Source: Planctomycetota bacterium
GTDB taxonomy: Bacteria > Planctomycetota > UBA8108 > SXIK01
Reading direction: 5' to 3'
NCBI GenBank assembly: GCA_965223845.1
Contig: CBDCXR010000004.1
Span: forward strand, 512,001-576,000
Length of the DNA: 64,000 nucleotides
Shown here: positions 18,791-59,603 of the stretch, piece after piece
Position numbering within the stretch: the stretch's first letter is position 1
Layout: each line of letters begins with the position of its first letter
Made by a program: the position numbers and the translations under genes
The notes under the pieces: generated by a model
The model's database searches: none
What the model saw: the letters and a program-made list of their open reading frames with translations, nothing else
Told to the model about the DNA's origin: nothing

Positions 18791-21700
18791 TTACTCCGTC
18801 GGCAGACAGGCGATGTCGTCCTCGGTCGGATCGAGGCCCGGCTCCGAGAACGGGCTCGGTGGTTCCGGCCCGTCGGCGAAGAGGTGGAGGAGCAGATAGA
18901 TCGGATCGGTGATGTTCACCCGTCCGGTGTCGTCGACGTCGGCGGCGTCTTCGCAAGCGAGTCGGCCGTCGCCGAAGAGATACTCGAGGATCGCGACGGC
19001 ATCAGCGAGGTTCACAGAATCGTCCCCGTTGACCTCGCCGCGGAGGAACGGGATCTTGCTCGGATCGGGGATGACCGTGACGGTTTCGGTGGCGACGAGG
19101 TCGCCGCTCCGGCTGAACGCGAAGATCTGCACCTCGCTCGCCGTGTCGCCGGGAACGTCGACGCGCATGGTCCAGCGCGTCGGGAACTGACTTCCCGCGG
19201 AAGCCCATTCGATGGCCGCCGTTTCGGTGTCCCCGTCGTCGACTACGGTCAGGAAGCTGCGCGCGTCGAGCGGGGCCGTCCCCGTGATCGTGGCGACCCC
19301 GTCTTCGGCGATGATCGGAAGATCCGACGTCACCGCAAAACCCGCGGCGAACGAGGTGCGCCACGTGCTGTTGACGCGTGAGACTCGCGTGCGCGCGAAT
19401 CCTAGAATCCCGTTCGGGCTATTCACGCCCCCTGGGCCGGCGTCTTCGGCGACTGCAGACGTCCAGCTCGTCAAATAGGCGTTCGACCAGAAGGTCTCGG
19501 TGAACTCCTTGAGGATGCTGCCGTAGAGCCGCCGGTATTTCGGATAGTTGTAGAGACGGCTCACGCCGCTCGCGGCACTGTCGCGCGGAATGAGCGTCGC
19601 ACCGGTGTTCGCGAAGGTATGGTCCATGTCCCACGGGAGGAGATAGCAGCGACCTTCGATCGGGGCGTAGTAAAGGTACGCGTTCTGGCCGTTCCCGATT
19701 CCGATCGTGTCCCAATCGTCCTGGAGAACGCGGATGATGAACGTGCGGAAGAACGATTCGACGTTGAGGATGCCCTCGATCGTTTCTTCGAACACCTCGT
19801 CCGGCGTCGTCGTTCGATCCATCGCCCGGAGGAGCGCGATGAGCGGCGAGAAATCATCCTGATCACGGAGAATCTTCGGGTGCCAGTAGTAGCGAAGGTT
19901 CTCCGGCGATTCTTCCCCGGCGTACGGCGCACCGCGGTAGCGCCGGAACGCCGTCCAGTCGTTTGCCTGCATGTCGGGGCCGCGCCCGCCGGAACTGTCG
20001 TTGAACGCGAGTTTCCCGGTGATCTTCCACGCCATACCGCCGGAATCCTCCGGCCAGTTGAAGTCGGCGTAATCTTTGTCGATCACCGACACATGCGCGA
20101 GCGCACCGCCGCTGTGCTGCGCAGCGTTCCGGTAGACTTTGTGGTAGTCGTAGATCTGGCCGGTCGGAACGACGGCACCGGGAACCGAAGCTTTCGCGAG
20201 AAGCTGATACCCCGTTCCTTCGTTCTGCGCCGACCCGTAGCGGCTGATATTGAACTTTTTGAATTCGTCGCGGTAGCGGTGGTCGCCGTTGAACCGCACG
20301 CGGAACATGCGCGGTGAGCCGGGACGGTTCCACGGGCTCCCGTGGTAACGGAAGCCGACGTCGTAGTAGACCTCCTCCTCCTCGAACACGAAAGTCCCGC
20401 GGATGAGATGGTTCGAGTGGAGGAACTGGGTGTCGAGCCGCCGGTTGTTCGTCGAGTTGAGGACGACGCGCTGGCGGAGGAGCGGACTCTCGATCGGCTG
20501 ATCGACGATGCACGCCCAGGTTTTCTCCGGGGCGTCCCAAGGATACGCGTGCGTCGCACCGAGCGAATCCTTCGTCTCGAACCAGAAGTTCACGATCGCT
20601 CCGTCCGACTGGCTCGGGATACGACCGCCGTAGCGCCCGTCCCCCGCGACCTCGTCGCCGTCTTCGCCGGCGTCGTTGAGCGAGATCATCTGCGCGACTT
20701 CGTCGCCGTCGACGAGGTAGTGGAGGTTCACCTCATCGATGCCGTCCTCGTCGGCGACGTCGGCCCGGAACGTAATCAGCTCCGTCGGGAGCGGCACCGC
20801 CGGAAAGTGACGCGCGTTCGAGACCACGGGCCCGAGGTTGTCGGCTCGAACGCTGTTTTCGCGTCCCGGCGTCCCGGGCTGGGTCGGCACCGGTAACCAC
20901 ACCGTGCGGCCGAACGCGTTGTTGTGACCGCAGACGTGAAGCGCATTGCTGCCGGTGATCCAGCGCGCGGAGACGCGGATCGTTCCTTCACCACGCGGAT
21001 AATTGCGCGAGGCCTGCGCTTCCACTCGGTTCGCTTTGTTGTTTCCGCCGCCGCTAGCAACGATGTGGAGGCTACCCTCGCCGCTTCGTGCGTCCTCGGT
21101 GGTGTGGAACGACTCCTCGTGGTTTCCCCAGAGACGCCAGCGGGTGTCGCCGTCCTCGAAATCGCCGTTCGCGATGTGCTCCGTAGCGCCCACCGCGACC
21201 GAGACGTCGTCGACGAGGCACTCGCCGGCCGTCAGGAGATAGAGGTGGATCTCGGGGTCCGCCGGACCGGGAGCGACGGGATCGAGCCGCGCGGTGTACT
21301 CGACGTCGATCCACGGAGCCTCCTCGATGCTCCCGCGCCACGCGTGGCCGGAGGAGTTGTCGGCGTCGGGATCGATCAACTCGAGGCTCGACCCGCCGTT
21401 GTCCGCGCGAACGTCCCACTGCCCCTCATCGAAATACCGCACGTCGTCGATCGTGTTCCCGAGCGGATCGACGAGGCGCAGACGATCGCCGCTGTTGCTC
21501 AGTGTGCCGAAGCGATCGAGTTCCTCCTCGGTGGCGTTTCCCGGCAAGCCTACGACGATGTCCGCACCGAGCTCGTACCTCGACCGGACATAGTCGACAT
21601 CACGGGCGACCACGATGTAGCTGCCCGGGCCGATCGTCGCGTCGCCCGGGAAGTCGTACCGGATCGCGGAGCGGAGAGAGTATCCCGCGAGCGGAATCTC

Positions 21701-23374
21701 TCGCTCCGAGCGATTGTAGATCTCCACGTACTCGCCTCTCGCGGTGTCGACGAGGGGCCGGTTGTCTTCGTCTACGAGACGCGGGTGGTACATGATCTCG
21801 TTGATGACGAGACCCGTCTCGAGCTCGATGATGTTGCTCTCGCCGAGACTTGGAGTCGTCGACAGAGCCCAAGCCGCGTCTCTGCCGGGGAGCCGGGAGT
21901 GGCTGCGCGCCTCCTCCGGGAGTGCGGCGGGGTTGTCGACGTGGGCGGCGGACTCGACGCTGCCGTCGCTCCGGTAGAGAAAGAGCCTCAGCTCTTCCGC
22001 GGTGAGCGCGAACCCGAGCTCCGCTTCGCTTACCGCGAAGACGCCGTTCGCCGCGATGACCGTGTCGTCGGGGAAGACGTACTTGAGCGGCTCGCCCGGA
22101 TCGTCGCTCACGTGGTAGCCGTCGAGCGGAAGCGGCATACCGAGCCGGTTGATCAGCTCGATTCCGCGCTCGGCATCGGGCGCTTGAGACACGATTTCGT
22201 TGAAGTCGACCTGAGCGACCGGCGGCGGCTGGAAGAACCGAAAGGTGCGGTAGCCGATTCCGAGCCCGACTCCACCGTCGTTCGAGCCGAGGCTGACATT
22301 GTGCACCGAGGCGGCGAGGACGTTCGTTCCGACCTGCACCCGCTCCTTCGGAATGGTGATCTCTTCGGACGTCGTGAGGTTCCGCGAGCGCCGGGCGCGG
22401 CTCTCGACGGAGATCTCTTCGAGCGTGTCGTCGCGCATGTTGAGCAGCGTGACGAGCTGGCCGTTGAGGAAGAAGACGCCGCCGTCGTCGATGCTGATGC
22501 GCAGAACGAGCGAGTCCATCGCATCGAACTCTTCCTGCGTGACTTCGAACGACTTGCGCACCGCGAAGGAGTAGAAGTTGTCCTCCATGCCTTCGATCAG
22601 CGTCGCGACGTCTTCTGCGGGGTAGCCGATCGGCAACTCTCCCGACGCCCAGCCGTCGTCAGCAAAATCGGGGGCGCGCCAGGCGGCGGGCGGATCGGAA
22701 AACTCGGCGATCGCGCCGGCTTCGACATCGAAGGAAACCTTGTACCGGACCGTGGATTCGGGCCCAGTCTCCGGCGTGAGCGGGTTGTACTCGGGGATCG
22801 GCGGCGGAAAGTTGTCGATCCCCGGCGTCCCATCCGGTTGACCGCTGCGGACCCAGTTCACCCCGCGGTCGGGGTCGAGGAGCGAGCCTCGGAGGGAGAG
22901 CGTATGCCCCGTCCCGTCCGCTCCCGGAGGCCAAGGATAATCGTCTTCGTAGCGGAGGCTGACGAGCGGTTGACCCGATGCGGTGACGATCTCGATGCGC
23001 TCGCCGCCGTTGTCTAGCCGGCCGGTGAAGTTTCCGATCGCGTTGGCGATCCCGTACTTGGCGACGACGGCGTCCACGTCGCGGCAGACGACGAGTCGCG
23101 CGCGGGACGCGAGCAACGTACCACCGGGAAACGCGAACTCGATGCCCGATGCGAAGTAGGCGCCGGAAAGGTCGATCGGGATCGAGAGGTCGTTGTAGAT
23201 CTCGACGAACTCGAGTGACTCGGTGGGGTCGTCGGCGGGGTTCGGGTGGTAGTGAACTTCCGTGATCCGAAGTGCGGACACCGGTGTCGTCATGAGACAC
23301 CAGACGGCGGCCGCGAGGATCAGCGTCGAGCCGCTGCGTGCGGCTTGGCCGCGTCCGAAGGAACGATTCCCCAT
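18791..23374 (-). CDS. Large secreted lamin-tail domain / CotH kinase family protein with C-terminal dockerin-like domain
   Basis: LRITEVHYHP and LVINEIMYHP LTD starts; CotH-like DWD...NAYLY...LPWDMDHTF; FLRGEVNGD...DAADVDDTG. Confidence 0.88.
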   Translation of the reverse strand: MGNRSFGRGQAARSGSTLILAAAVWCLMTTPVSALRITEVHYHPNPADDPTESLEFVEIYNDLSIPIDLSGAYFASGIEFAFPGGTLLASRARLVVCRDVDAVVAKYGIANAIGNFTGRLDNGGERIEIVTASGQPLVSLRYEDDYPWPPGADGTGHTLSLRGSLLDPDRGVNWVRSGQPDGTPGIDNFPPPIPEYNPLTPETGPESTVRYKVSFDVEAGAIAEFSDPPAAWRAPDFADDGWASGELPIGYPAEDVATLIEGMEDNFYSFAVRKSFEVTQEEFDAMDSLVLRISIDDGGVFFLNGQLVTLLNMRDDTLEEISVESRARRSRNLTTSEEITIPKERVQVGTNVLAASVHNVSLGSNDGGVGLGIGYRTFRFFQPPPVAQVDFNEIVSQAPDAERGIELINRLGMPLPLDGYHVSDDPGEPLKYVFPDDTVIAANGVFAVSEAELGFALTAEELRLFLYRSDGSVESAAHVDNPAALPEEARSHSRLPGRDAAWALSTTPSLGESNIIELETGLVINEIMYHPRLVDEDNRPLVDTARGEYVEIYNRSEREIPLAGYSLRSAIRYDFPGDATIGPGSYIVVARDVDYVRSRYELGADIVVGLPGNATEEELDRFGTLSNSGDRLRLVDPLGNTIDDVRYFDEGQWDVRADNGGSSLELIDPDADNSSGHAWRGSIEEAPWIDVEYTARLDPVAPGPADPEIHLYLLTAGECLVDDVSVAVGATEHIANGDFEDGDTRWRLWGNHEESFHTTEDARSGEGSLHIVASGGGNNKANRVEAQASRNYPRGEGTIRVSARWITGSNALHVCGHNNAFGRTVWLPVPTQPGTPGRENSVRADNLGPVVSNARHFPAVPLPTELITFRADVADEDGIDEVNLHYLVDGDEVAQMISLNDAGEDGDEVAGDGRYGGRIPSQSDGAIVNFWFETKDSLGATHAYPWDAPEKTWACIVDQPIESPLLRQRVVLNSTNNRRLDTQFLHSNHLIRGTFVFEEEEVYYDVGFRYHGSPWNRPGSPRMFRVRFNGDHRYRDEFKKFNISRYGSAQNEGTGYQLLAKASVPGAVVPTGQIYDYHKVYRNAAQHSGGALAHVSVIDKDYADFNWPEDSGGMAWKITGKLAFNDSSGGRGPDMQANDWTAFRRYRGAPYAGEESPENLRYYWHPKILRDQDDFSPLIALLRAMDRTTTPDEVFEETIEGILNVESFFRTFIIRVLQDDWDTIGIGNGQNAYLYYAPIEGRCYLLPWDMDHTFANTGATLIPRDSAASGVSRLYNYPKYRRLYGSILKEFTETFWSNAYLTSWTSAVAEDAGPGGVNSPNGILGFARTRVSRVNSTWRTSFAAGFAVTSDLPIIAEDGVATITGTAPLDARSFLTVVDDGDTETAAIEWASAGSQFPTRWTMRVDVPGDTASEVQIFAFSRSGDLVATETVTVIPDPSKIPFLRGEVNGDDSVNLADAVAILEYLFGDGRLACEDAADVDDTGRVNITDPIYLLLHLFADGPEPPSPFSEPGLDPTEDDIACLPTE

Positions 23375-23893
23375 GTTCTTTCCATCCTCTCCGTGGATTC
23401 CGATCGCCGTGCGGGGGCGGTCTCGACCGGCTGGCATGAGCGCCGCGCGACGCTCGACCGCTCTTGCGAGCAGACCCGAGTCGGGCGTCGACGTACCGAT
23501 AACACCTCGTGAGGTGCGACTTTAAGGCTTCGCGAAGGCCGGAGGAAGGAGAAAAGAGCGCGCGCTCGATCCAGGTTGGCGCACCGCCGGCCGCGTGAGT
23601 CGCGATCGGGTCCTGTATGCGTCCTCGCCGTCCGCCAGACGCGCGGCGCACGGGCAACGTCCAGCGGCCGATCGAGCGGATCGCCCCGCCCCGACGCGTC
23701 AGCGCCGACCCAGGGCTCCCGGAGATCGACAACCCGTGACAACTGGCGACAGCTTGCGACTGGGAACGGCGAAACCGGCCGGGGAGGATAGCGACTGTCG
23801 AGAGCGAACGGGCCCCGCGGTCCCGGCTCCACTCTCGACGTTCCGAGGTGGAGCGCCAAGCATTCGGCAAACTCTCGCAGAAAGGAAGCGACC

Positions 23894-27169: not shown

Positions 27170-28414
27170 ATGAATCTCTCCCGACGCCAATTCCTGAGCG
27201 CGACGGCGCTCGCGGGTCTCACGCCCGTCCCGCGCGTGCTCCTCGAAGCCGCACTCCGGCCGCGGGCGAACGACGAGGACGCGACGACACTCGTCGTCCT
27301 CCAGCTCTCGGGTGGGAACGACGCGCTGAACACCGTGATCCCGGGTGAGGATCCGATCTACCGGCGCGAACGGCCGACGCTCGCCGTGGGCGAGGAGCGC
27401 GTGCTCTCGCTCGCGCGTGGAGCTTTCGACCCGGCGGGCGTGACTCTCTCGGGCGCCGCCCAAGCGGAACACATCGGATTCCATCCGGAGATGAAAGCGC
27501 TCTGGGAGCTCTACGGAGAAGGACGCGTCGCGGTCGTGCAGGGAGTCGGCTACCCGAATCCGAGCCGATCGCACTTTCGCTCGATGGACATCTGGCACAC
27601 CGCGCGTCCCGACGTCGAAGATACGGAGAGCGGCTGGCTCGGGCGCACGATCGACCGCCACTCGGGGGCGATGTCCGCCGTCGACATCGGTCACGCCGCG
27701 CTGCCGCTCGCGCTTCGCGGGGAAACGGAGGTCCCGAGTCTGCAGAATCTCGACTGGCTCGACGAGCTCGCGTCACCCGAGGGTCGACGCGTTCGCAGTC
27801 GGCTGCGCGCGCTCCACGCGGCCGGACGAACCGGGCCCGCTGAGCGCGTGCGTCGGCTGGCCGTATCGACCTTCGCATCGCTCGATCGTCTCGTCGAGCT
27901 GCGCAACCGGCCCGTGCCTGTCGAGTACCCCGATTCCCGTCTCGCCGACCGATTGAAGTGGGCGGCGCAACTCATCTCGGGTCACTTCCCCGCGCGCGTT
28001 CTCTACCTCTCCCTCGGCGGGTTCGACACCCACGCGCAACAGCGCGAGCACCACGAGCGTTTGCTCCGCGACCTCTCTGGTTCCGTCGCCGCGTTCTTTC
28101 GCCACCTCGAGGCGCAGAGCGAGGAGAAGCGAGTGACCGTGCTCGTCTTCAGCGAGTTCGGCCGGCGTGTGCGCGAGAACGGCAGCCGGGGGACAGACCA
28201 CGGCGTCGCGGCGCCGCTCTTTCTGATCTCGGGCAAGGTCCGAGGAGGGGTGTACGGACCGCACCCGCGACTCGACGACCTCGACGACGGCGACCTCCGG
28301 TTCCACACGGACTTTCGCCGGATTTACGCGACGCTCCTCGACCGCTGGCTCGGGGTGGGGGACTCGAAGACGCTTCTCGGGGGCGAGTTCGCTCCGCTCG
28401 ACGTGTACGCGTAG
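27170..28414 (+). CDS. DUF1501 family protein with Tat signal
   Basis: SRRQFL Tat motif; LSGGNDALN, RSHFRS, GGFDTH and SEFGRR...GTDHG motifs. Confidence 0.93.
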   Translation: MNLSRRQFLSATALAGLTPVPRVLLEAALRPRANDEDATTLVVLQLSGGNDALNTVIPGEDPIYRRERPTLAVGEERVLSLARGAFDPAGVTLSGAAQAEHIGFHPEMKALWELYGEGRVAVVQGVGYPNPSRSHFRSMDIWHTARPDVEDTESGWLGRTIDRHSGAMSAVDIGHAALPLALRGETEVPSLQNLDWLDELASPEGRRVRSRLRALHAAGRTGPAERVRRLAVSTFASLDRLVELRNRPVPVEYPDSRLADRLKWAAQLISGHFPARVLYLSLGGFDTHAQQREHHERLLRDLSGSVAAFFRHLEAQSEEKRVTVLVFSEFGRRVRENGSRGTDHGVAAPLFLISGKVRGGVYGPHPRLDDLDDGDLRFHTDFRRIYATLLDRWLGVGDSKTLLGGEFAPLDVYA

Positions 28415-28645
28415 AGATCGGCGTGTCGACTCGACTCGAATCCCGGGTCCGGGTGATGTCTGCCCTCGCGGAGAGGCCGCGGACCGCGCACTCTCGTGTC
28501 GCTCCGAGGGGCCAGGGGCGCCGCGCGGGTCGCGGCGGAGGCCGGCTCGGCCCGAGCGCGAGCTCAAAGTGTCAGATTCTTGGGCGATTGGCATCTACCC
28601 CCGGTGGCGACGCCGCCTAAGTCGTTAAAATCGAATGGTTTAGGT

Positions 28646-28661
28646 TGGCACGCGCGTTGCT
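28646..28661 (+). promoter_or_regulatory. Sigma-54 (-24/-12) promoter
   Basis: TGGCAC-GCGCG-TTGCT is an exact match to the TGGCAC-N5-TTGCW consensus, in an AT-richer intergenic patch. Confidence 0.85.
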
Positions 28662-28671
28662 CTACAATCCA

Positions 28672-28788
28672 GTGAGACCCAAAACCCTAACCCAACCCTT
28701 CCTCATGATTCCTCCTCCGAGGAACCTTCCTCTTCCGAGGGCGGGGGCCGGTGGCGCAAGCCACCCGCCTTCGCCCTTCGTGCCTTTT
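28672..28788 (+). ncRNA. Candidate sigma-54-dependent small RNA
   Basis: Begins at the predicted TSS. C/U-rich tract with CCTTCCTC, TTCCTCCTCC and CCTTCCTCTTCC, followed by a long GCAA-loop hairpin and TTTT. The next gene is convergent. Confidence 0.6.
28738..28788 (+). terminator. GC-rich hairpin with GNRA loop and short T run
   Basis: GAGGGCGGGGGCCGGTGGC-GCAA-GCCACCCGCCTTCGCCCTTC, followed by GTGCCTTTT. Confidence 0.6.
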
Positions 28789-28826
28789 AGGGGGGCCGGG
28801 TTTCTCGCGCGGTGACCCCTCGCGCC

Positions 28827-30056
28827 TCACTCCGCGAGCACTTTGCGGATGAGTCCCGACGGGAAGAACCCGGGATGACCGCGCCACCGAATCGTGCCCG
28901 CGCGATCGATCACGACGAGTCCCGGCAGGCTGTTCGCGAGATACGCGTCCCACACTCGATCCTCCGGGACAAACGCGACGTCCATGAACTCGAATCCCGT
29001 CTTCTCGATGTAGAGCTCCGGGCTCTCGGTGCTCTTCGGGTCGTTGGGATCGATGACGCCGAGCCACGCGACGCCCTCGTCGCCCCAGGTCGCGATCAGC
29101 CGGCGAAGGTTGGGCGCCTCTTTCGAGCAGTTCGTGCACCACGTGGCGACGAAGACGAGAATGCGGACTTCGCCGTCGAGTGAGCGGATGCCGGTCGAGT
29201 CGACGACTCCGTTCAGCCACTTCGCGGCGCGGAGCGGAGTGTACGGGCGACCGACGATCGAGAGCTGGCGAAGGTATTTTTGCGCGCGCTTCACGTCGGC
29301 GGTGCGATCGGGAAAGTCGCGAATGACTCGCGCGTAAGTGCGCCGCGCGGCCGGGATCTGATCGAGCCCGGACTGAACGATGCCGACGCGAAGAAGCGAA
29401 CGCGAGCGCGCGGGGTCCGCCGGATACTCATCGAACGCTCGCGCGTACTGAGCGAGCGCTTCGTTCTGTTTTCCGAGCATCAGCAGCGTCGATCCCGTCA
29501 TGTAGGTCGCGGACGCGGCTTTCGGGGCGCGCGGGTGCTCCTTCGTCACGGCGCGGAAGGTCGCGAGTGCGGTCTCGAGCCGCTCGATCCCTGTCGCTTC
29601 CGACACCGGCTTCTTCCGCAGATTCTGCCCCTGCAGATACTGCGTTTGACCGACTTCGAATCGGAGCTCAGCGCGCACGTCGCCGATCGGATTCTTCGCG
29701 AGACCGTCCGCGAGCACGGCGAGTGCTTCGTCGTATTGATACTGTTTTCGCAGGCTGCGGACTCGCTCGACGACGGCCTCGGCAGAGCGGAGACCCGGTC
29801 CGGAGGACGCGCCGCCGCCATCGGTCGCGGGCGAGGATGGCGATTCGTTCTGCTTCGTCGCGTCGCCGTCGCCCTTCGTCGAGGCGTCGCTCGCCACCGG
29901 CGTCGTAATCGCGTCCACCGCGGTCGTCGGATTCGCATCCGGGGCCTTCTTCTCCGGCGGCGCGCCCGAGTCTCCGGGCTCTCCGGAGCAAGCGGGAAGT
30001 GCGAGCGCGACGACGAGGAGAACGAGGGCGGGGATGACGGCGGCGGCGGAGCGCAT
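28827..30056 (-). CDS. Lipoprotein with TPR repeats and TlpA/redoxin domain
   Basis: Lipobox LPAC; TPR helices; FVATWCTNC; cis-Pro motif SLP...IDRAG. Confidence 0.85.
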   Translation of the reverse strand: MRSAAAVIPALVLLVVALALPACSGEPGDSGAPPEKKAPDANPTTAVDAITTPVASDASTKGDGDATKQNESPSSPATDGGGASSGPGLRSAEAVVERVRSLRKQYQYDEALAVLADGLAKNPIGDVRAELRFEVGQTQYLQGQNLRKKPVSEATGIERLETALATFRAVTKEHPRAPKAASATYMTGSTLLMLGKQNEALAQYARAFDEYPADPARSRSLLRVGIVQSGLDQIPAARRTYARVIRDFPDRTADVKRAQKYLRQLSIVGRPYTPLRAAKWLNGVVDSTGIRSLDGEVRILVFVATWCTNCSKEAPNLRRLIATWGDEGVAWLGVIDPNDPKSTESPELYIEKTGFEFMDVAFVPEDRVWDAYLANSLPGLVVIDRAGTIRWRGHPGFFPSGLIRKVLAE

Positions 30057-59272: not shown

Positions 59273-59348
59273 TGGTGCGCCCTCAGGGATTCGAACCCCG
59301 GACCCGCTGATTAAGAGTCAGCTGCTCTGCCGACTGAGCTAAGGGCGC
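59273..59348 (-). tRNA. tRNA-Lys (CTT)
   Basis: GCGCCCT acceptor stem; CTGACT-CTT-AATCAG anticodon arm; GTTCGAATC T loop; encoded CCA; 76 nt. Confidence 0.97.
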
Positions 59349-59526: not shown

Positions 59527-59603
59527 TGGCGCGCCCGGCACGACTCGAACGTGCAACCAATGGTTTCGAAGACCACTACTCTATCCAATTGAGCTACGGG
59601 CGC
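59527..59603 (-). tRNA. tRNA-Arg (TCG)
   Basis: GCGCCCG acceptor stem; GTGGT-CT-TCG-AA-ACCAT anticodon arm; GTTCGAGTC T loop; encoded CCA; 77 nt. Confidence 0.96.

What the first reader, a model, noticed from the sequence alone, without database searches (positions are those of the whole stretch)
28616..28800. Orphan sigma-54 transcription unit with no protein gene: candidate new anti-SD-type sRNA
Seen: a perfect TGGCAC-N5-TTGCT element at 28646-28661, with an AT-rich imperfect palindrome (CCTAAGTCGTT...AATGGTTTAGG) directly upstream. After the predicted TSS (~28672) come an A/C-rich leader and three CU-rich motifs (CCTTCCTC, TTCCTCCTCC, CCTTCCTCTTCC). These are followed by a ~40-nt GCAA-tetraloop hairpin and TTTT, and the next gene is convergent. 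Known: sigma-54 drives sRNAs elsewhere (Qrr, CrcZ, GlmY) and needs an enhancer-binding protein, often with IHF; CCUCC motifs pair with Shine-Dalgarno sequences in cuckoo, AbcR and RsaE-type RNAs. Inference: a ~115-nt regulatory RNA that may block translation of several targets. I do not recognise it as a known family.
Basis: partly seen in the sequence, partly recalled or inferred. Interest (0 to 1): 0.85.

Follow-up and report, generated by a model that had tools for sequence, protein, structure and literature searches.

The report
Conserved sigma-54-driven small RNA gene
This is a small non-coding RNA gene with a sigma-54 promoter that is kept in every sampled genome of one uncultured planctomycete order, so it is a real and undescribed regulatory RNA family whose targets are still unknown.

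Summary
A perfect TGGCAC-N5-TTGCT sits at 28646-28661. It is the only match in the window and one of 4 in the 7.9-Mb genome. The A/C-rich leader, three CU-rich motifs, a 38-nt GCAA hairpin and a convergent gene follow as described.

The unit is conserved. A model of promoter plus leader matches 21 of 21 genomes of the order and 0 of 38 genomes of the other orders of the class. I found 35 distinct copies. All keep GG-N10-GC at a fixed distance from a nearly invariant 5' end (GAGACCCAAAACCC...). Most also keep an upstream TGTCAG palindrome and a second fixed-distance element.

The terminal hairpin covaries: 9 of 11 pairs show compensatory changes, and 0 of 500 shuffles reach the observed score. 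No ORF is conserved. There is no Rfam match. The genome has two rpoN genes and about 30 enhancer-binding proteins, but no Hfq or CsrA.

The function is inferred. The most likely reading is an Hfq-independent, C-rich base-pairing RNA. Target prediction was uninformative, there is no RNA-seq, and the 3' end is not a canonical terminator.

This is a new sRNA family of a known kind.

The parts
28568..28586 (+). Putative enhancer (UAS) for the activator: AGTGTCAG-N5-TTGGGCG. This is a degenerate copy of the TGTCMG-N5-CTGRCA palindrome of the relatives, 77 nt upstream of the promoter GG.
   Evidence: TGTCMG occurs within 180 nt upstream in 31 of 33 family copies that have at least 170 nt of upstream sequence, mostly at -98 to -101. 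That an activator binds it is inference.
28616..28644 (.). AT-rich imperfect palindrome CCTAAGTCGTT...AATGGTTTAGG. It holds, in inverted orientation, the element ACTTAsGAC that relatives carry 22-24 nt before TGG. It may be a site for an IHF/HU-type or other factor.
   Evidence: Coordinates. The element is present in 29 of 33 copies. Its fixed spacing also let a pattern search recover other sigma-54 promoters. Two HU/IHF-family genes are in the genome. The binding protein is not identified.
28646..28661 (+). Sigma-54 (-24/-12) promoter TGGCAC-N5-TTGCT.
   Evidence: Only match in the window, with 0 of 100 shuffles. One of 4 in the genome. GG and TGC are invariant in the 18-sequence alignment.
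28672..28674 (+). Predicted transcription start, about 12 nt after the -12 GC. Sequence conservation begins here.
   Evidence: Promoter geometry (established knowledge of sigma-54 promoters) and the alignment. No 5'-end data.
28674..28698 (+). Nearly invariant single-stranded 5' region GAGACCCAAAACCCTAACCCAACCC, made of repeats of ACCC. Proposed seed or binding platform.
   Evidence: Invariant columns. Mean unpaired probability of nt 1-28 is 0.80, against 0.43 for the rest, over 37 sequences that include 2 chance hits.
28697..28704 (+). First CU-rich motif CCTTCCTC. A CCUC(C)-like motif at this position is kept in almost all copies.
28709..28724 (+). Small hairpin TTCCTC-CTCC-GAGGAA, which holds the second CU motif. 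It is lineage-specific and absent in family f3.
28725..28736 (+). Third CU-rich motif CCTTCCTCTTCC. It is not conserved as such.
28739..28776 (+). Long G+C-rich terminal hairpin with a GCAA tetraloop.
   Evidence: Its base is conserved with covariation: 94% of cells are paired, 9 of 11 pairs have compensatory changes, 0 of 500 shuffles reach the score, and slid controls give 40-53% paired.
28777..28796 (+). Conserved pyrimidine-rich tail followed by a G run (TTCGTGCCTTTTAGGGGGG). The 3' end of the RNA lies in or beyond it.
   Evidence: The tail pattern yCUC..CAUCC/CUUUCU + GGG is seen in all families. It is not a canonical U-tract terminator.
27170..28414 (+). Upstream neighbour, a DUF1501 protein. 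Not part of the unit.
28827..30056 (-). Downstream convergent neighbour, a TPR + AhpC/TSA (thioredoxin-like) protein. In G003 the same kind of gene lies upstream of the RNA gene on the same strand.

Best explanation
The locus is the gene of a small non-coding RNA. The RNA starts near 28672 and runs at least to the hairpin at 28776, probably to about 28790-28800.

Transcription (inferred from sequence): RNA polymerase with sigma-54 uses the promoter at 28646-28661. It is switched on by one of the roughly 30 enhancer-binding proteins of the genome. That activator binds the TGTCAG-type palindrome about 75-100 bp upstream. A second fixed-position element (ACTTAGGAC-type) lies in between and may be bound by an architectural or other factor.

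Action (inferred, not shown): the RNA exposes an unstructured, nearly invariant 5' end made of ACCC repeats, followed by a CCUCC-like motif. It ends in a stable hairpin. I think it acts in trans by base pairing of this C-rich 5' region with G-rich stretches of mRNAs, ribosome-binding sites (GGAGG) included. Pairing would lower translation or stability without Hfq, as C-rich sRNAs of Firmicutes do.

It is probably co-regulated with a TPR-CHAT protease / secretin operon that carries the same kind of enhancer.
For: Promoter:
- It is perfect and rare.
- The genome has two rpoN genes and 36 Sigma54_activat matches, about 30 of them strong.

Conservation:
- The sequence model R1 (promoter plus leader) matches 21 of 21 genomes of the order and 0 of 38 of the other orders of the class.
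- In a sample of 151 genomes of the phylum, only the own genome and G005 have true copies.
- There are 35 distinct copies.
- GG and TGC of the promoter and GAGACCCAA.ACCC are invariant at a fixed distance.

Upstream elements:
- The upstream palindrome is present in 31 of 33 copies and the second element in 29 of 33.

RNA features:
- The 5' region is predicted unpaired: 0.80 against 0.43 for the rest.
- The terminal hairpin is kept by compensatory changes.
- No ORF is conserved. 4 of 25 copies have no start codon at all in the RNA, and the others give unrelated peptides.
- Gene neighbours and their orientation differ between families, so the unit stands alone.

Context for the proposed mechanism:
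- No Hfq or CsrA was found in the 91.7%-complete genome.
- GGAG peaks 9-15 nt before predicted starts, at up to 182 against a background of about 28, so SD-led genes exist as possible targets.
- A TGTCAG..CTGACA + sigma-54 arrangement also precedes a TPR-CHAT + secretin operon in 9 of 10 genomes of genus g5.
- The orthologous operon of the own genome has a sigma-54 promoter with GGTCAGGATGCCGGACA at -96.
Against: - There is no transcript evidence of any kind.
- The hairpin is not followed by a U tract and is not called a terminator. Two other small RNAs of the same genomes do end in canonical hairpin + U7-10 terminators.
- Predicted duplexes with translation-start regions are no stronger than for controls. 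407 of 4704 genes reach -24 kcal/mol or below, against 306 for the reversed RNA and 492-1323 for five shuffles.
- Exact 10-mer complements at 5' ends number 9, against 14 for the control.
- An invariant stretch of 14-25 nt is longer than usual seeds. This also fits a protein-binding platform.
- The activator was not identified. The one enhancer-binding-protein operon that carried the palindrome in the own genome does not keep it in 16 orthologous loci.
- In the window itself the enhancer is degenerate.
Confidence: 0.55

Rival explanations
1. It is a protein-binding (titrating or scaffolding) RNA. The repeated ACCC units of the invariant 5' end would be binding sites for an RNA-binding protein that reads C-rich single strands. 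The sigma-54-induced RNA would sequester or recruit this protein, as CsrB/RsmZ do for CsrA or CrcZ for Hfq/Crc.
For: - The conserved part is a tandem repeat of one short motif (3-5 ACCC units with A-rich spacers). It is invariant over 14-25 nt in three families, which is more than base-pairing seeds need.
- No target enrichment was seen.
- A second small RNA of the same genomes (the C-loop hairpin RNA) shows the same motif vocabulary (GACCCAAA, ACCCAAC, CCCUAC) in a 50-nt loop. This would fit a shared protein partner.
Against: - No candidate protein is known, and Hfq and CsrA are not found.
- The same facts fit a shared RNA partner.
- C-rich exposed motifs are the known signature of pairing sRNAs in Hfq-less bacteria (PMC2790875, abstract seen in the search listing).
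Confidence: 0.2
2. It is one partner of an RNA-RNA antagonism. The C-rich RNA would pair with the G-rich, also sigma-54-driven, RNA of about 200-260 nt that I found elsewhere in the same genomes. One of the two would act as a sponge for the other.
For: - A G-rich RNA with a sigma-54-type promoter and GAGGGUAGGG / GGGUUGGG / GGAGG motifs is present in 20 of 21 genomes.
- In G003 and G005 its complementarity to the 5' end of the C-rich RNA exceeds shuffles, with z = 4.3 and 4.0.
- Sponge pairs of C-rich and G-rich sRNAs are known in Firmicutes (10.1101/278127 and PMC8216469, search listings only).
Against: - In 8 of 10 genomes tested, the window's own genome included (z = -0.2), the complementarity is no better than for shuffled sequence.
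- The G-rich RNA fits the other C-rich RNA (the C-loop hairpin) better: z is at least 2 in 9 of 11 genomes, and there is a 24-of-25 antisense stretch in G003.
Confidence: 0.1
3. It is a cis-acting element and not a free RNA. It could be a sigma-54 promoter with a conserved leader that serves a downstream gene. It could also be a DNA-level element: the template strand of 28677-28698 has four G tracts, a quadruplex-like motif.
For: - In G003 the next gene (an LTD-domain protein) is on the same strand.
- There is no canonical terminator.
- In another planctomycete (G134), sigma-54 promoters with a similar CA-rich leader sit directly before pilin-like genes.
- The four C tracts in the window are read directly.
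Against: - The downstream gene is convergent in the window and in genus g5.
- By a rough ORF heuristic the nearest downstream ORF is on the opposite strand in 14 of 21 loci. That heuristic mis-calls the window itself, so this count is weak.
- The neighbours are unrelated between families.
- The covarying hairpin travels with the promoter.
- Genus g5 has only three C tracts, so a quadruplex is not conserved.
Confidence: 0.08
4. It encodes a small protein, either the 36-aa ORF starting at 28705 or a leaderless GTG ORF at 28672.
For: The ORFs exist in the window: 47 aa from GTG at 28672, which contains the ATG at 28705 in frame.
Against: - No ORF is shared. 4 of 25 copies have no ATG/GTG/TTG-started ORF at all.
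- The others give peptides of 1-100 aa with unrelated sequences.
- Copies differ by insertions and deletions that are not multiples of three.
Confidence: 0.02

Closest known systems
Sigma-54-dependent sRNAs of Proteobacteria (Qrr1-5 with LuxO, GlmY/GlmZ with GlrR, CrcZ/CrcY with CbrB)
   Same: - An orphan small transcription unit with a -24/-12 promoter.
- An upstream palindromic activator site.
- An intervening element at the place where IHF sites usually lie.
- A terminal hairpin.
- More than one copy in some genomes: G005 has 4, and G014, G016 and G017 have 2.
For LuxO and CbrB I saw only search listings (PMC4878744, PMC6296734). The rest is recalled.
   Different: - No sequence or structure match to any Rfam family, these included.
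- The phylum is different.
- The gene is not next to its activator gene. No enhancer-binding-protein gene lies within about 90 kb in the own genome.
- No Hfq is present.
- The conserved part is an ACCC-repeat 5' end.
C-rich (UCCC-motif) sRNAs of Firmicutes: RsaE/RoxS and relatives
   Same: Exposed C-rich motifs that would pair with G-rich ribosome-binding regions, in an organism without Hfq dependence (PMC2790875 and PMC6158497, starts of abstracts seen). This is what I think the RNA works like.
   Different: - It is not homologous, with no Rfam match.
- The C tracts lie in a linear 5' end and not in hairpin loops.
- The promoter is sigma-54-type.
- Targets are not known.
CCUCCUCCC-motif sRNAs of Alphaproteobacteria (cuckoo/CcsR, AbcR-type anti-SD loops)
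   Same: CU-rich anti-SD-like motifs. The window's small hairpin shows CUCC in its loop. The comparison with these families is recalled and comes from no call.
   Different: - The CU motifs beyond the first are not conserved in the family.
- There is no tandem array of motif-bearing hairpins.
- There is no Rfam match.
Two other undescribed small RNAs of the same genomes (found here)
   Same: - The C-loop hairpin RNA shares the motif vocabulary GACCCAAA / ACCCAAC / CCCUAC.
- The G-rich RNA shares the sigma-54 promoter type and the ACTTrnGAC-type upstream element.
   Different: - They lie at different loci and have different architectures, and both have canonical terminators.
- The C-loop RNA has a sigma-70-like promoter.

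Membership tests
Any Rfam 15 family | Score at or above the family's gathering threshold | tested here: not met
   The whole window gives only two tRNAs. The permissive search of 28400-28900 gives only sub-threshold chance hits. The best are mir-483 at 24 bits against a threshold of 60, and P26 at 19 against 36.
Sigma-54-dependent promoter | GG-N10-GC with a TGGCAC-N5-TTGCW-like sequence | tested here: met
   Perfect match at 28646-28661. GG and TGC are invariant in 18 aligned copies.
Sigma-54-dependent promoter | rpoN and enhancer-binding proteins are encoded in the genome | tested here: met
   Two Sigma54_DBD genes. 36 Sigma54_activat matches.
Sigma-54-dependent promoter | Transcription depends on sigma-54 and on a specific activator bound upstream | not testable with these tools
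   A conserved upstream palindrome exists, but its binding protein is unknown. One candidate was rejected.
Trans-acting base-pairing sRNA | A discrete, expressed small transcript | not testable with these tools
   No RNA run is listed for this sequence. The 3' end is not defined.
Trans-acting base-pairing sRNA | A conserved, accessible seed region | tested here: met
   The 5' region is invariant and predicted unpaired at 0.80.
Trans-acting base-pairing sRNA | Complementary sites enriched at target mRNAs | tested here: inconclusive
   There is no enrichment over reversed or shuffled controls. The gene starts came from a crude caller, and the G+C-rich genome gives strong duplexes everywhere.
Non-coding (against small protein gene) | No ORF conserved among homologues | tested here: met
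   25 copies were compared.
Intrinsic (Rho-independent) terminator | A G+C-rich hairpin directly followed by a U tract | tested here: not met
   The scan does not report the 28739-28776 hairpin. The TTTT begins 8 nt after the stem. Relatives have CCUC..CAUCC tails instead.
Qrr / GlmY / CrcZ type loci | The sRNA gene lies next to the gene of its activator | tested here: not met
   The nearest Sigma54_activat genes are at C4:451255 and C4:765243, against the locus at C4:540646. The neighbours in other families are housekeeping genes.

The most novel reading that the evidence does not exclude
The RNA may be one node of a lineage-specific riboregulatory network that works without Hfq or CsrA. The network would have three parts: a sigma-54-induced C-rich RNA (this finding), a sigma-70-type C-loop hairpin RNA with the same ACCC/CCCUAC motifs, and a sigma-54-induced G-rich RNA that carries their complements. 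Together they would set the availability of G-rich ribosome-binding regions. One enhancer-binding protein would switch on the C-rich RNA together with a TPR-CHAT protease / secretin envelope operon. If so, an uncultured planctomycete class couples a sigma-54 signalling pathway to translation through competing C-rich and G-rich RNAs.
Probability: 0.15. Interest if true: 0.8.

Novelty: new member of a known kind. Interest (0 to 1): 0.55.

Why it matters
Few regulatory RNA families are catalogued for the Planctomycetes-Verrucomicrobia-Chlamydiae group. A 2022 review counts 8, against 345 for Proteobacteria (PMC9029176, table passage read). I found none with a sigma-54 promoter in Planctomycetes in the library.

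This family is defined by comparison alone. Even so, it has an unusually complete regulatory anatomy: enhancer, middle element, core promoter, seed-like 5' end and a covarying hairpin. It is universal in its order. That gives a concrete handle on one sigma-54 pathway, out of about 30 activators per genome, in organisms that cannot yet be grown. It also points to RNA regulation without Hfq or CsrA.

The family can be added to RNA family databases at once. The two further RNAs and the shared enhancer with a CHAT/secretin operon give testable links.

Tried and rejected
1. Expression data. The look-up of sequencing runs listed no RNA holder for 28000-29500. There were 5 holders from 2 studies, and none is on record as RNA. 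Read laying was therefore not used. The metagenome scan returned 10 long DNA contigs and no transcript-like short contigs.

2. Target prediction.
- RNAduplex of the first 40 nt against -60..+40 of 4704 crudely called genes: 407 reach -24 kcal/mol or below, against 306 for the reversed RNA and 492-1323 for five shuffles.
- The duplex positions show no peak at the SD.
- Exact 10-mer complements number 9 at 5' ends, against 14 for the control.
These results are uninformative and are not evidence against pairing.

3. Finding the activator.
- The only full palindrome of the TGTCAG-N5-CTGRCA type in the own genome lies at the start of a histidine-kinase / enhancer-binding-protein operon (C4:7737917).
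- The operon is well conserved, at 49-74% identity in 16 orthologous loci. None keeps the palindrome at that place. I rejected it as a chance match.

4. Pilin link. Weak model hits in another planctomycete (G134) are sigma-54 promoters before pilin-like genes with a similar CA-rich leader. In the own genome only 1 of 7 pilin-like N-termini has a sigma-54-like promoter, and its leader is unrelated. I did not pursue this.

5. Pairing with the G-rich RNA. It is significant in only 2 of 10 genomes.

6. Pairing with the 560-nt leader of the own CHAT operon. z = 0.0.

7. Downstream-gene orientation by an ORF heuristic. The heuristic mis-calls the window's own neighbours, so I use it only as a rough count.

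9. Supplementary files of papers were not consulted. None of the cited papers is about this lineage.

10. The name of the lineage. Records of homologues are titled Planctomycetota/Planctomycetia MAGs, among them isolates UBA8108, UBA1146 and UBA1662. That GTDB names a placeholder class after one of them is my recollection and was not checked.
Full report
THE OBSERVATION

- TGGCACGCGCGTTGCT lies at 28646-28661. It is the only match to TGGCACNNNNNTTGCW in the 64-kb window, and none of 100 shuffles has one.
- In the whole assembly (7.93 Mb, 4 contigs, 65% G+C in the main contig) there are only 4 exact matches. There are 46 with one mismatch outside GG/GC.
- The imperfect palindrome is at 28616-28644.
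- The three CU-rich motifs are at 28697-28704, 28709-28718 and 28725-28736.
- The hairpin is at 28739-28776, with a GCAA loop.
- The 119 nt from 28672 fold at -46.7 kcal/mol, with z = -4.4 against shuffles.
- The flanking genes are a DUF1501 protein (27170-28414, +) and a convergent TPR + AhpC/TSA protein (28827-30056, -).

One detail does not hold as interpreted. The TTTT starts 8 nt after the stem, and the terminator scan does not call this hairpin a terminator.

IS SIGMA-54 AVAILABLE

The genome encodes two proteins with the sigma-54 DNA-binding domain. It has 36 matches to the sigma-54 activator AAA+ domain, about 30 of them strong. None of these lies near the locus (C4:540646). The closest are at C4:451255 and C4:765243.

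CONSERVATION

A BLAST-type search of 60 relatives gave one long homologue (G003, 74% over 148 nt). It also gave short, very similar hits to the first 28 nt after the predicted start.
- The 14-mer GAGACCCAAAACCC (window 28674-28687), preceded at a fixed distance by GG-N10-GC, then turned up across the order.
- I aligned 18 copies over promoter plus leader. GG, TGC and GAGACCCAA.ACCC are invariant.
- I built a sequence-only model from that alignment.
- The model matches 21 of 21 genomes of the order (3 families, 11 genera; 28 matches). It matches 0 of 38 genomes of the other orders of the same class.
- In an even sample of 151 genomes of the phylum, only the own genome and G005 have true copies.
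- The three weak hits in two other genomes are not homologues. Two are sigma-54 promoters in front of pilin-like genes, and one is an unrelated site.
- A pattern scan of one genome for each of 185,579 species returned 40 stretches. 21 have the full architecture, and all of these come from records titled Planctomycetota/Planctomycetia or 'uncultured bacterium' MAGs. 19 are chance matches in other phyla without the architecture.
- A metagenome scan with the family-f2 form of the leader returned 10 contigs. All have the architecture, and three are new variants.

In all I count 35 distinct copies: 37 regex hits minus 2 chance hits. Some genomes have several. G005 has 4, and G014, G016 and G017 have 2. 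G018 has 2 that lie at contig ends and may be one.

ANATOMY SHARED BY THE FAMILY

(i) Enhancer-like palindrome. It is of the type TGTCMG-N5-CTGRCA, often followed by TGGCA.
- TGTCMG lies within 180 nt upstream in 31 of 33 copies that have enough upstream sequence. It is mostly at -98 to -101 from the promoter GG.
- A hexamer of this kind is expected by chance in about 8% of such regions (my arithmetic).
- In the window it is degenerate (AGTGTCAG-ATTCT-TGGGCG, 28568-28586) and closer, at -77.

(ii) Middle element. ACTTAsGAC ends 22-24 nt before TGG in 29 of 33 copies.
- In genus g5 it is part of a longer inverted repeat.
- Its position is where IHF sites lie in many sigma-54 promoters (established knowledge). 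The genome has two HU/IHF-family genes.
- The same element at the same spacing occurs at other sigma-54 promoters, so it is not specific to this RNA.

(iii) The -24/-12 promoter.

(iv) The 5' region. The sequence is nearly invariant from the predicted +3 onward: 3-5 ACCC units with A-rich spacers, then a CCUC(C)-like motif at about +25 to +35. It is predicted unpaired, with a mean of 0.80 against 0.43 for the rest.

(v) A variable middle. It has a small hairpin in families f1 and f2 and none in f3.

(vi) A long G+C-rich hairpin.
- 94% of cells in its 11 basal pairs are paired.
- 9 of the 11 pairs show compensatory changes.
- 0 of 500 column shuffles reach the observed covariation score.
- Slid controls give 40-53% paired.

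(vii) A pyrimidine-rich tail that often again contains CCCUCC, followed by GGG(G).

NOT A PROTEIN GENE AND NOT A LEADER

Among 25 copies, 4 have no ATG/GTG/TTG-started ORF in the RNA at all. The others give unrelated peptides of 1-100 aa. The ATG at 28705 has no counterpart in G003. The copies also differ by many insertions and deletions.

The neighbours differ between lineages:
- In the window the TPR + AhpC/TSA gene is convergent.
- In G003 a gene of the same kind lies upstream on the same strand, and an LTD-domain gene follows on the same strand.
- In genus g5 the neighbours are a PUA/SAM methyltransferase (upstream) and an opposite-strand ORF followed by BipA.
- A rough ORF heuristic puts the nearest downstream ORF on the opposite strand in 14 of 21 loci. 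It mis-calls the window, so this is weak.

WHAT IT DOES

Shown: the conservation of a sigma-54 promoter with its accessory sites, an accessible invariant 5' end, and a covarying hairpin.

Inferred: that it is transcribed, that one enhancer-binding protein controls it, and that it acts through the C-rich 5' end.

I favour base pairing with G-rich RNA, Shine-Dalgarno regions included, for four reasons.
- The exposed sequence is C-rich and ends in an anti-SD-like CCUCC.
- GGAG is clearly used before starts in this genome, with a peak of 182 against a background of about 28.
- Hfq and CsrA are not found (the genome is 91.7% complete).
- This is how C-rich sRNAs work in Hfq-independent systems (PMC2790875 and PMC6158497, starts of abstracts seen).

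My target searches neither support nor exclude this. In a 65% G+C genome every C-rich probe finds strong duplexes, and my gene starts are crude.

The length of the invariant stretch and its repeat nature keep a protein-binding role alive.

LINKS FOUND WHILE SEARCHING FOR THE REGULON

(a) Shared enhancer with a CHAT/secretin operon.
- The pattern 'palindrome + 70-100 nt + sigma-54 promoter' gave no hit for its reversed control in any genome.
- Besides the RNA genes, it recovered one further conserved locus in 9 of 10 g5 genomes.
- That locus precedes a 1093-aa TPR-CHAT protein followed by a secretin.
- The own genome has the orthologous pair at C4:791536-796913 (40% and 51% identity).
- It lies behind a sigma-54 promoter at 790949 that has GGTCAGGATGCCGGACA at -96.

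This suggests, but does not prove, one activator for both.

(b) A second sigma-54 RNA, G-rich.
- The pattern 'ACTTDNGAC + 22-24 nt + promoter' recovered a sigma-54 promoter in G003. It drives a G-rich RNA of about 250 nt with a canonical terminator.
- Its very conserved 3' part identifies homologues in 20 of 21 genomes. The own genome's copy is at C4, about 2181700-2181960.

(c) A third small RNA.
- A 25-nt piece of the G003 G-rich RNA is 24/25 antisense to a third element that is 96% conserved in all 21 genomes.
- That element is a hairpin RNA of about 80 nt with a sigma-70-like promoter, a 50-nt C-rich loop and a U-run terminator. The own copy is at C4, about 7375960-7376060, minus strand.
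- Neither of these two RNAs has an Rfam match.
- The loop of the third RNA uses the same words as the finding's 5' end (GACCCAAA, ACCCAAC, CCCUAC).

Complementarity to the G-rich RNA:
- For the finding's RNA it exceeds shuffles only in G003 and G005, 2 of 10 genomes. The own genome gives z = -0.2.
- For the C-loop RNA, z is at least 2 in 9 of 11 genomes.

The finding's RNA is therefore at most a loose member of such a network.

COMPARISON WITH KNOWN SYSTEMS

It works like the sigma-54-dependent sRNAs of Proteobacteria at the level of transcription. I infer that it works like the C-rich sRNAs of Firmicutes at the level of action.

It is a member of none of them.
- There is no Rfam match.
- There is no adjacent activator gene.
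- There is no Hfq.
- The CU motifs beyond the first are not conserved.

Library searches for sigma-54 sRNAs in Planctomycetes found nothing relevant. Only listings were read, plus one table passage of PMC9029176.

VERDICT

The locus is a real, conserved, undescribed sRNA gene family with a sigma-54 promoter, restricted to one order of an uncultured planctomycete class.

The anti-SD mechanism is plausible but untested. The 3' end and the activator are unknown.

Confidence that it is a sigma-54-type non-coding transcription unit is about 0.8. Confidence that it acts by C-rich base pairing is about 0.4-0.45. The figure of 0.55 given for the best explanation weighs the two together.

Noticed in passing
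own genome G000:C4 about 2181700-2181960 (+), outside the window; L169; G003 = L156/L168: A second undescribed sigma-54-type small RNA of about 200-260 nt. Its body is G-rich, with GAGGGUAGGG / GGGUUGGG / GGAGG motifs. Its 3' part is extremely conserved (up to 100% over about 45 nt across families), and it ends in a canonical hairpin + U7-10 terminator. Homologues are in 20 of 21 genomes of the order, and there is no Rfam match.
   Followed up: partly
own genome G000:C4 about 7375960-7376060 (-), outside the window; L180-L191: A third undescribed small RNA of about 80 nt. It has a sigma-70-like promoter and a GGGCCGGC/GCCGGCCC stem that encloses a nearly invariant 50-nt C-rich loop, followed by a U run. 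A 25-mer of the loop is 96% identical in all 21 genomes. In G003 that 25-mer is 24/25 antisense to a stretch of the G-rich RNA. Its complementarity to the G-rich RNA gives z of at least 2 in 9 of 11 genomes.
   Followed up: partly
G004:C7:18000-26000 (L231) and 8 other g5 genomes; own genome C4:790853-796913: A TPR-CHAT protein (1093 aa) and a secretin form an operon behind a sigma-54 promoter. A TGTCAGGATATCTGACA palindrome lies about 96 nt upstream, the same kind of enhancer as at the RNA gene. In the own genome the leader before the ATG at 791536 is about 560 nt long.
   Followed up: partly
L145, L146, L149, L161-L165, L167 (genus g5): A sigma-54 promoter preceded by ACTTAGGAC (here part of the perfect palindrome GGACATATGTCC) lies about 1.1 kb downstream of a 605-aa enhancer-binding-protein gene. 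It drives a gene for a protein with a signal-peptide-like N-terminus.
   Followed up: no
G134:C171:7872-7917 and C159:8421-8465 (L112, L114): In a planctomycete of another class, two sigma-54 promoters precede type IV pilin-like genes. Upstream are repeated TGTCA motifs, and the leader is CA-rich (AACCGAAACCCAAAACC before AAGGAG), like the start of the RNA described here.
   Followed up: partly
whole genome G000: Two rpoN genes (C4:7043805-7044275 - and C4:639835-640311 +) and about 30 sigma-54 activators, many in ORFs of 1600-2000 aa. Only 4 perfect TGGCAC-N5-TTGCW sites. No Hfq or CsrA detected.
   Followed up: no
window 28677-28698, minus strand: The template strand opposite the RNA's 5' end has four G tracts (GGG-N2-4 four times), a quadruplex-like, telomere-repeat-like motif. 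It is not conserved in genus g5, which has three tracts.
   Followed up: no
window 18791-23437 (-): A 1548-aa protein with lamin-tail (LTD), CotH kinase-like and dockerin domains. In G003 an LTD-domain gene lies next to the RNA gene.
   Followed up: no
window 59276-59348 and 59530-59603 (-): Two tRNA genes, the only Rfam matches in the window.
   Followed up: no
own genome C4:7737917-7740217 (L111/L115): A small histidine kinase (273 aa) and an NtrC-type activator (532 aa) form an operon. It is very well conserved across the order, at 49-74% identity against about 40% for paralogues. The TGTCAGAATGGCTGGCA palindrome over its start codon is not conserved in orthologues.
   Followed up: yes
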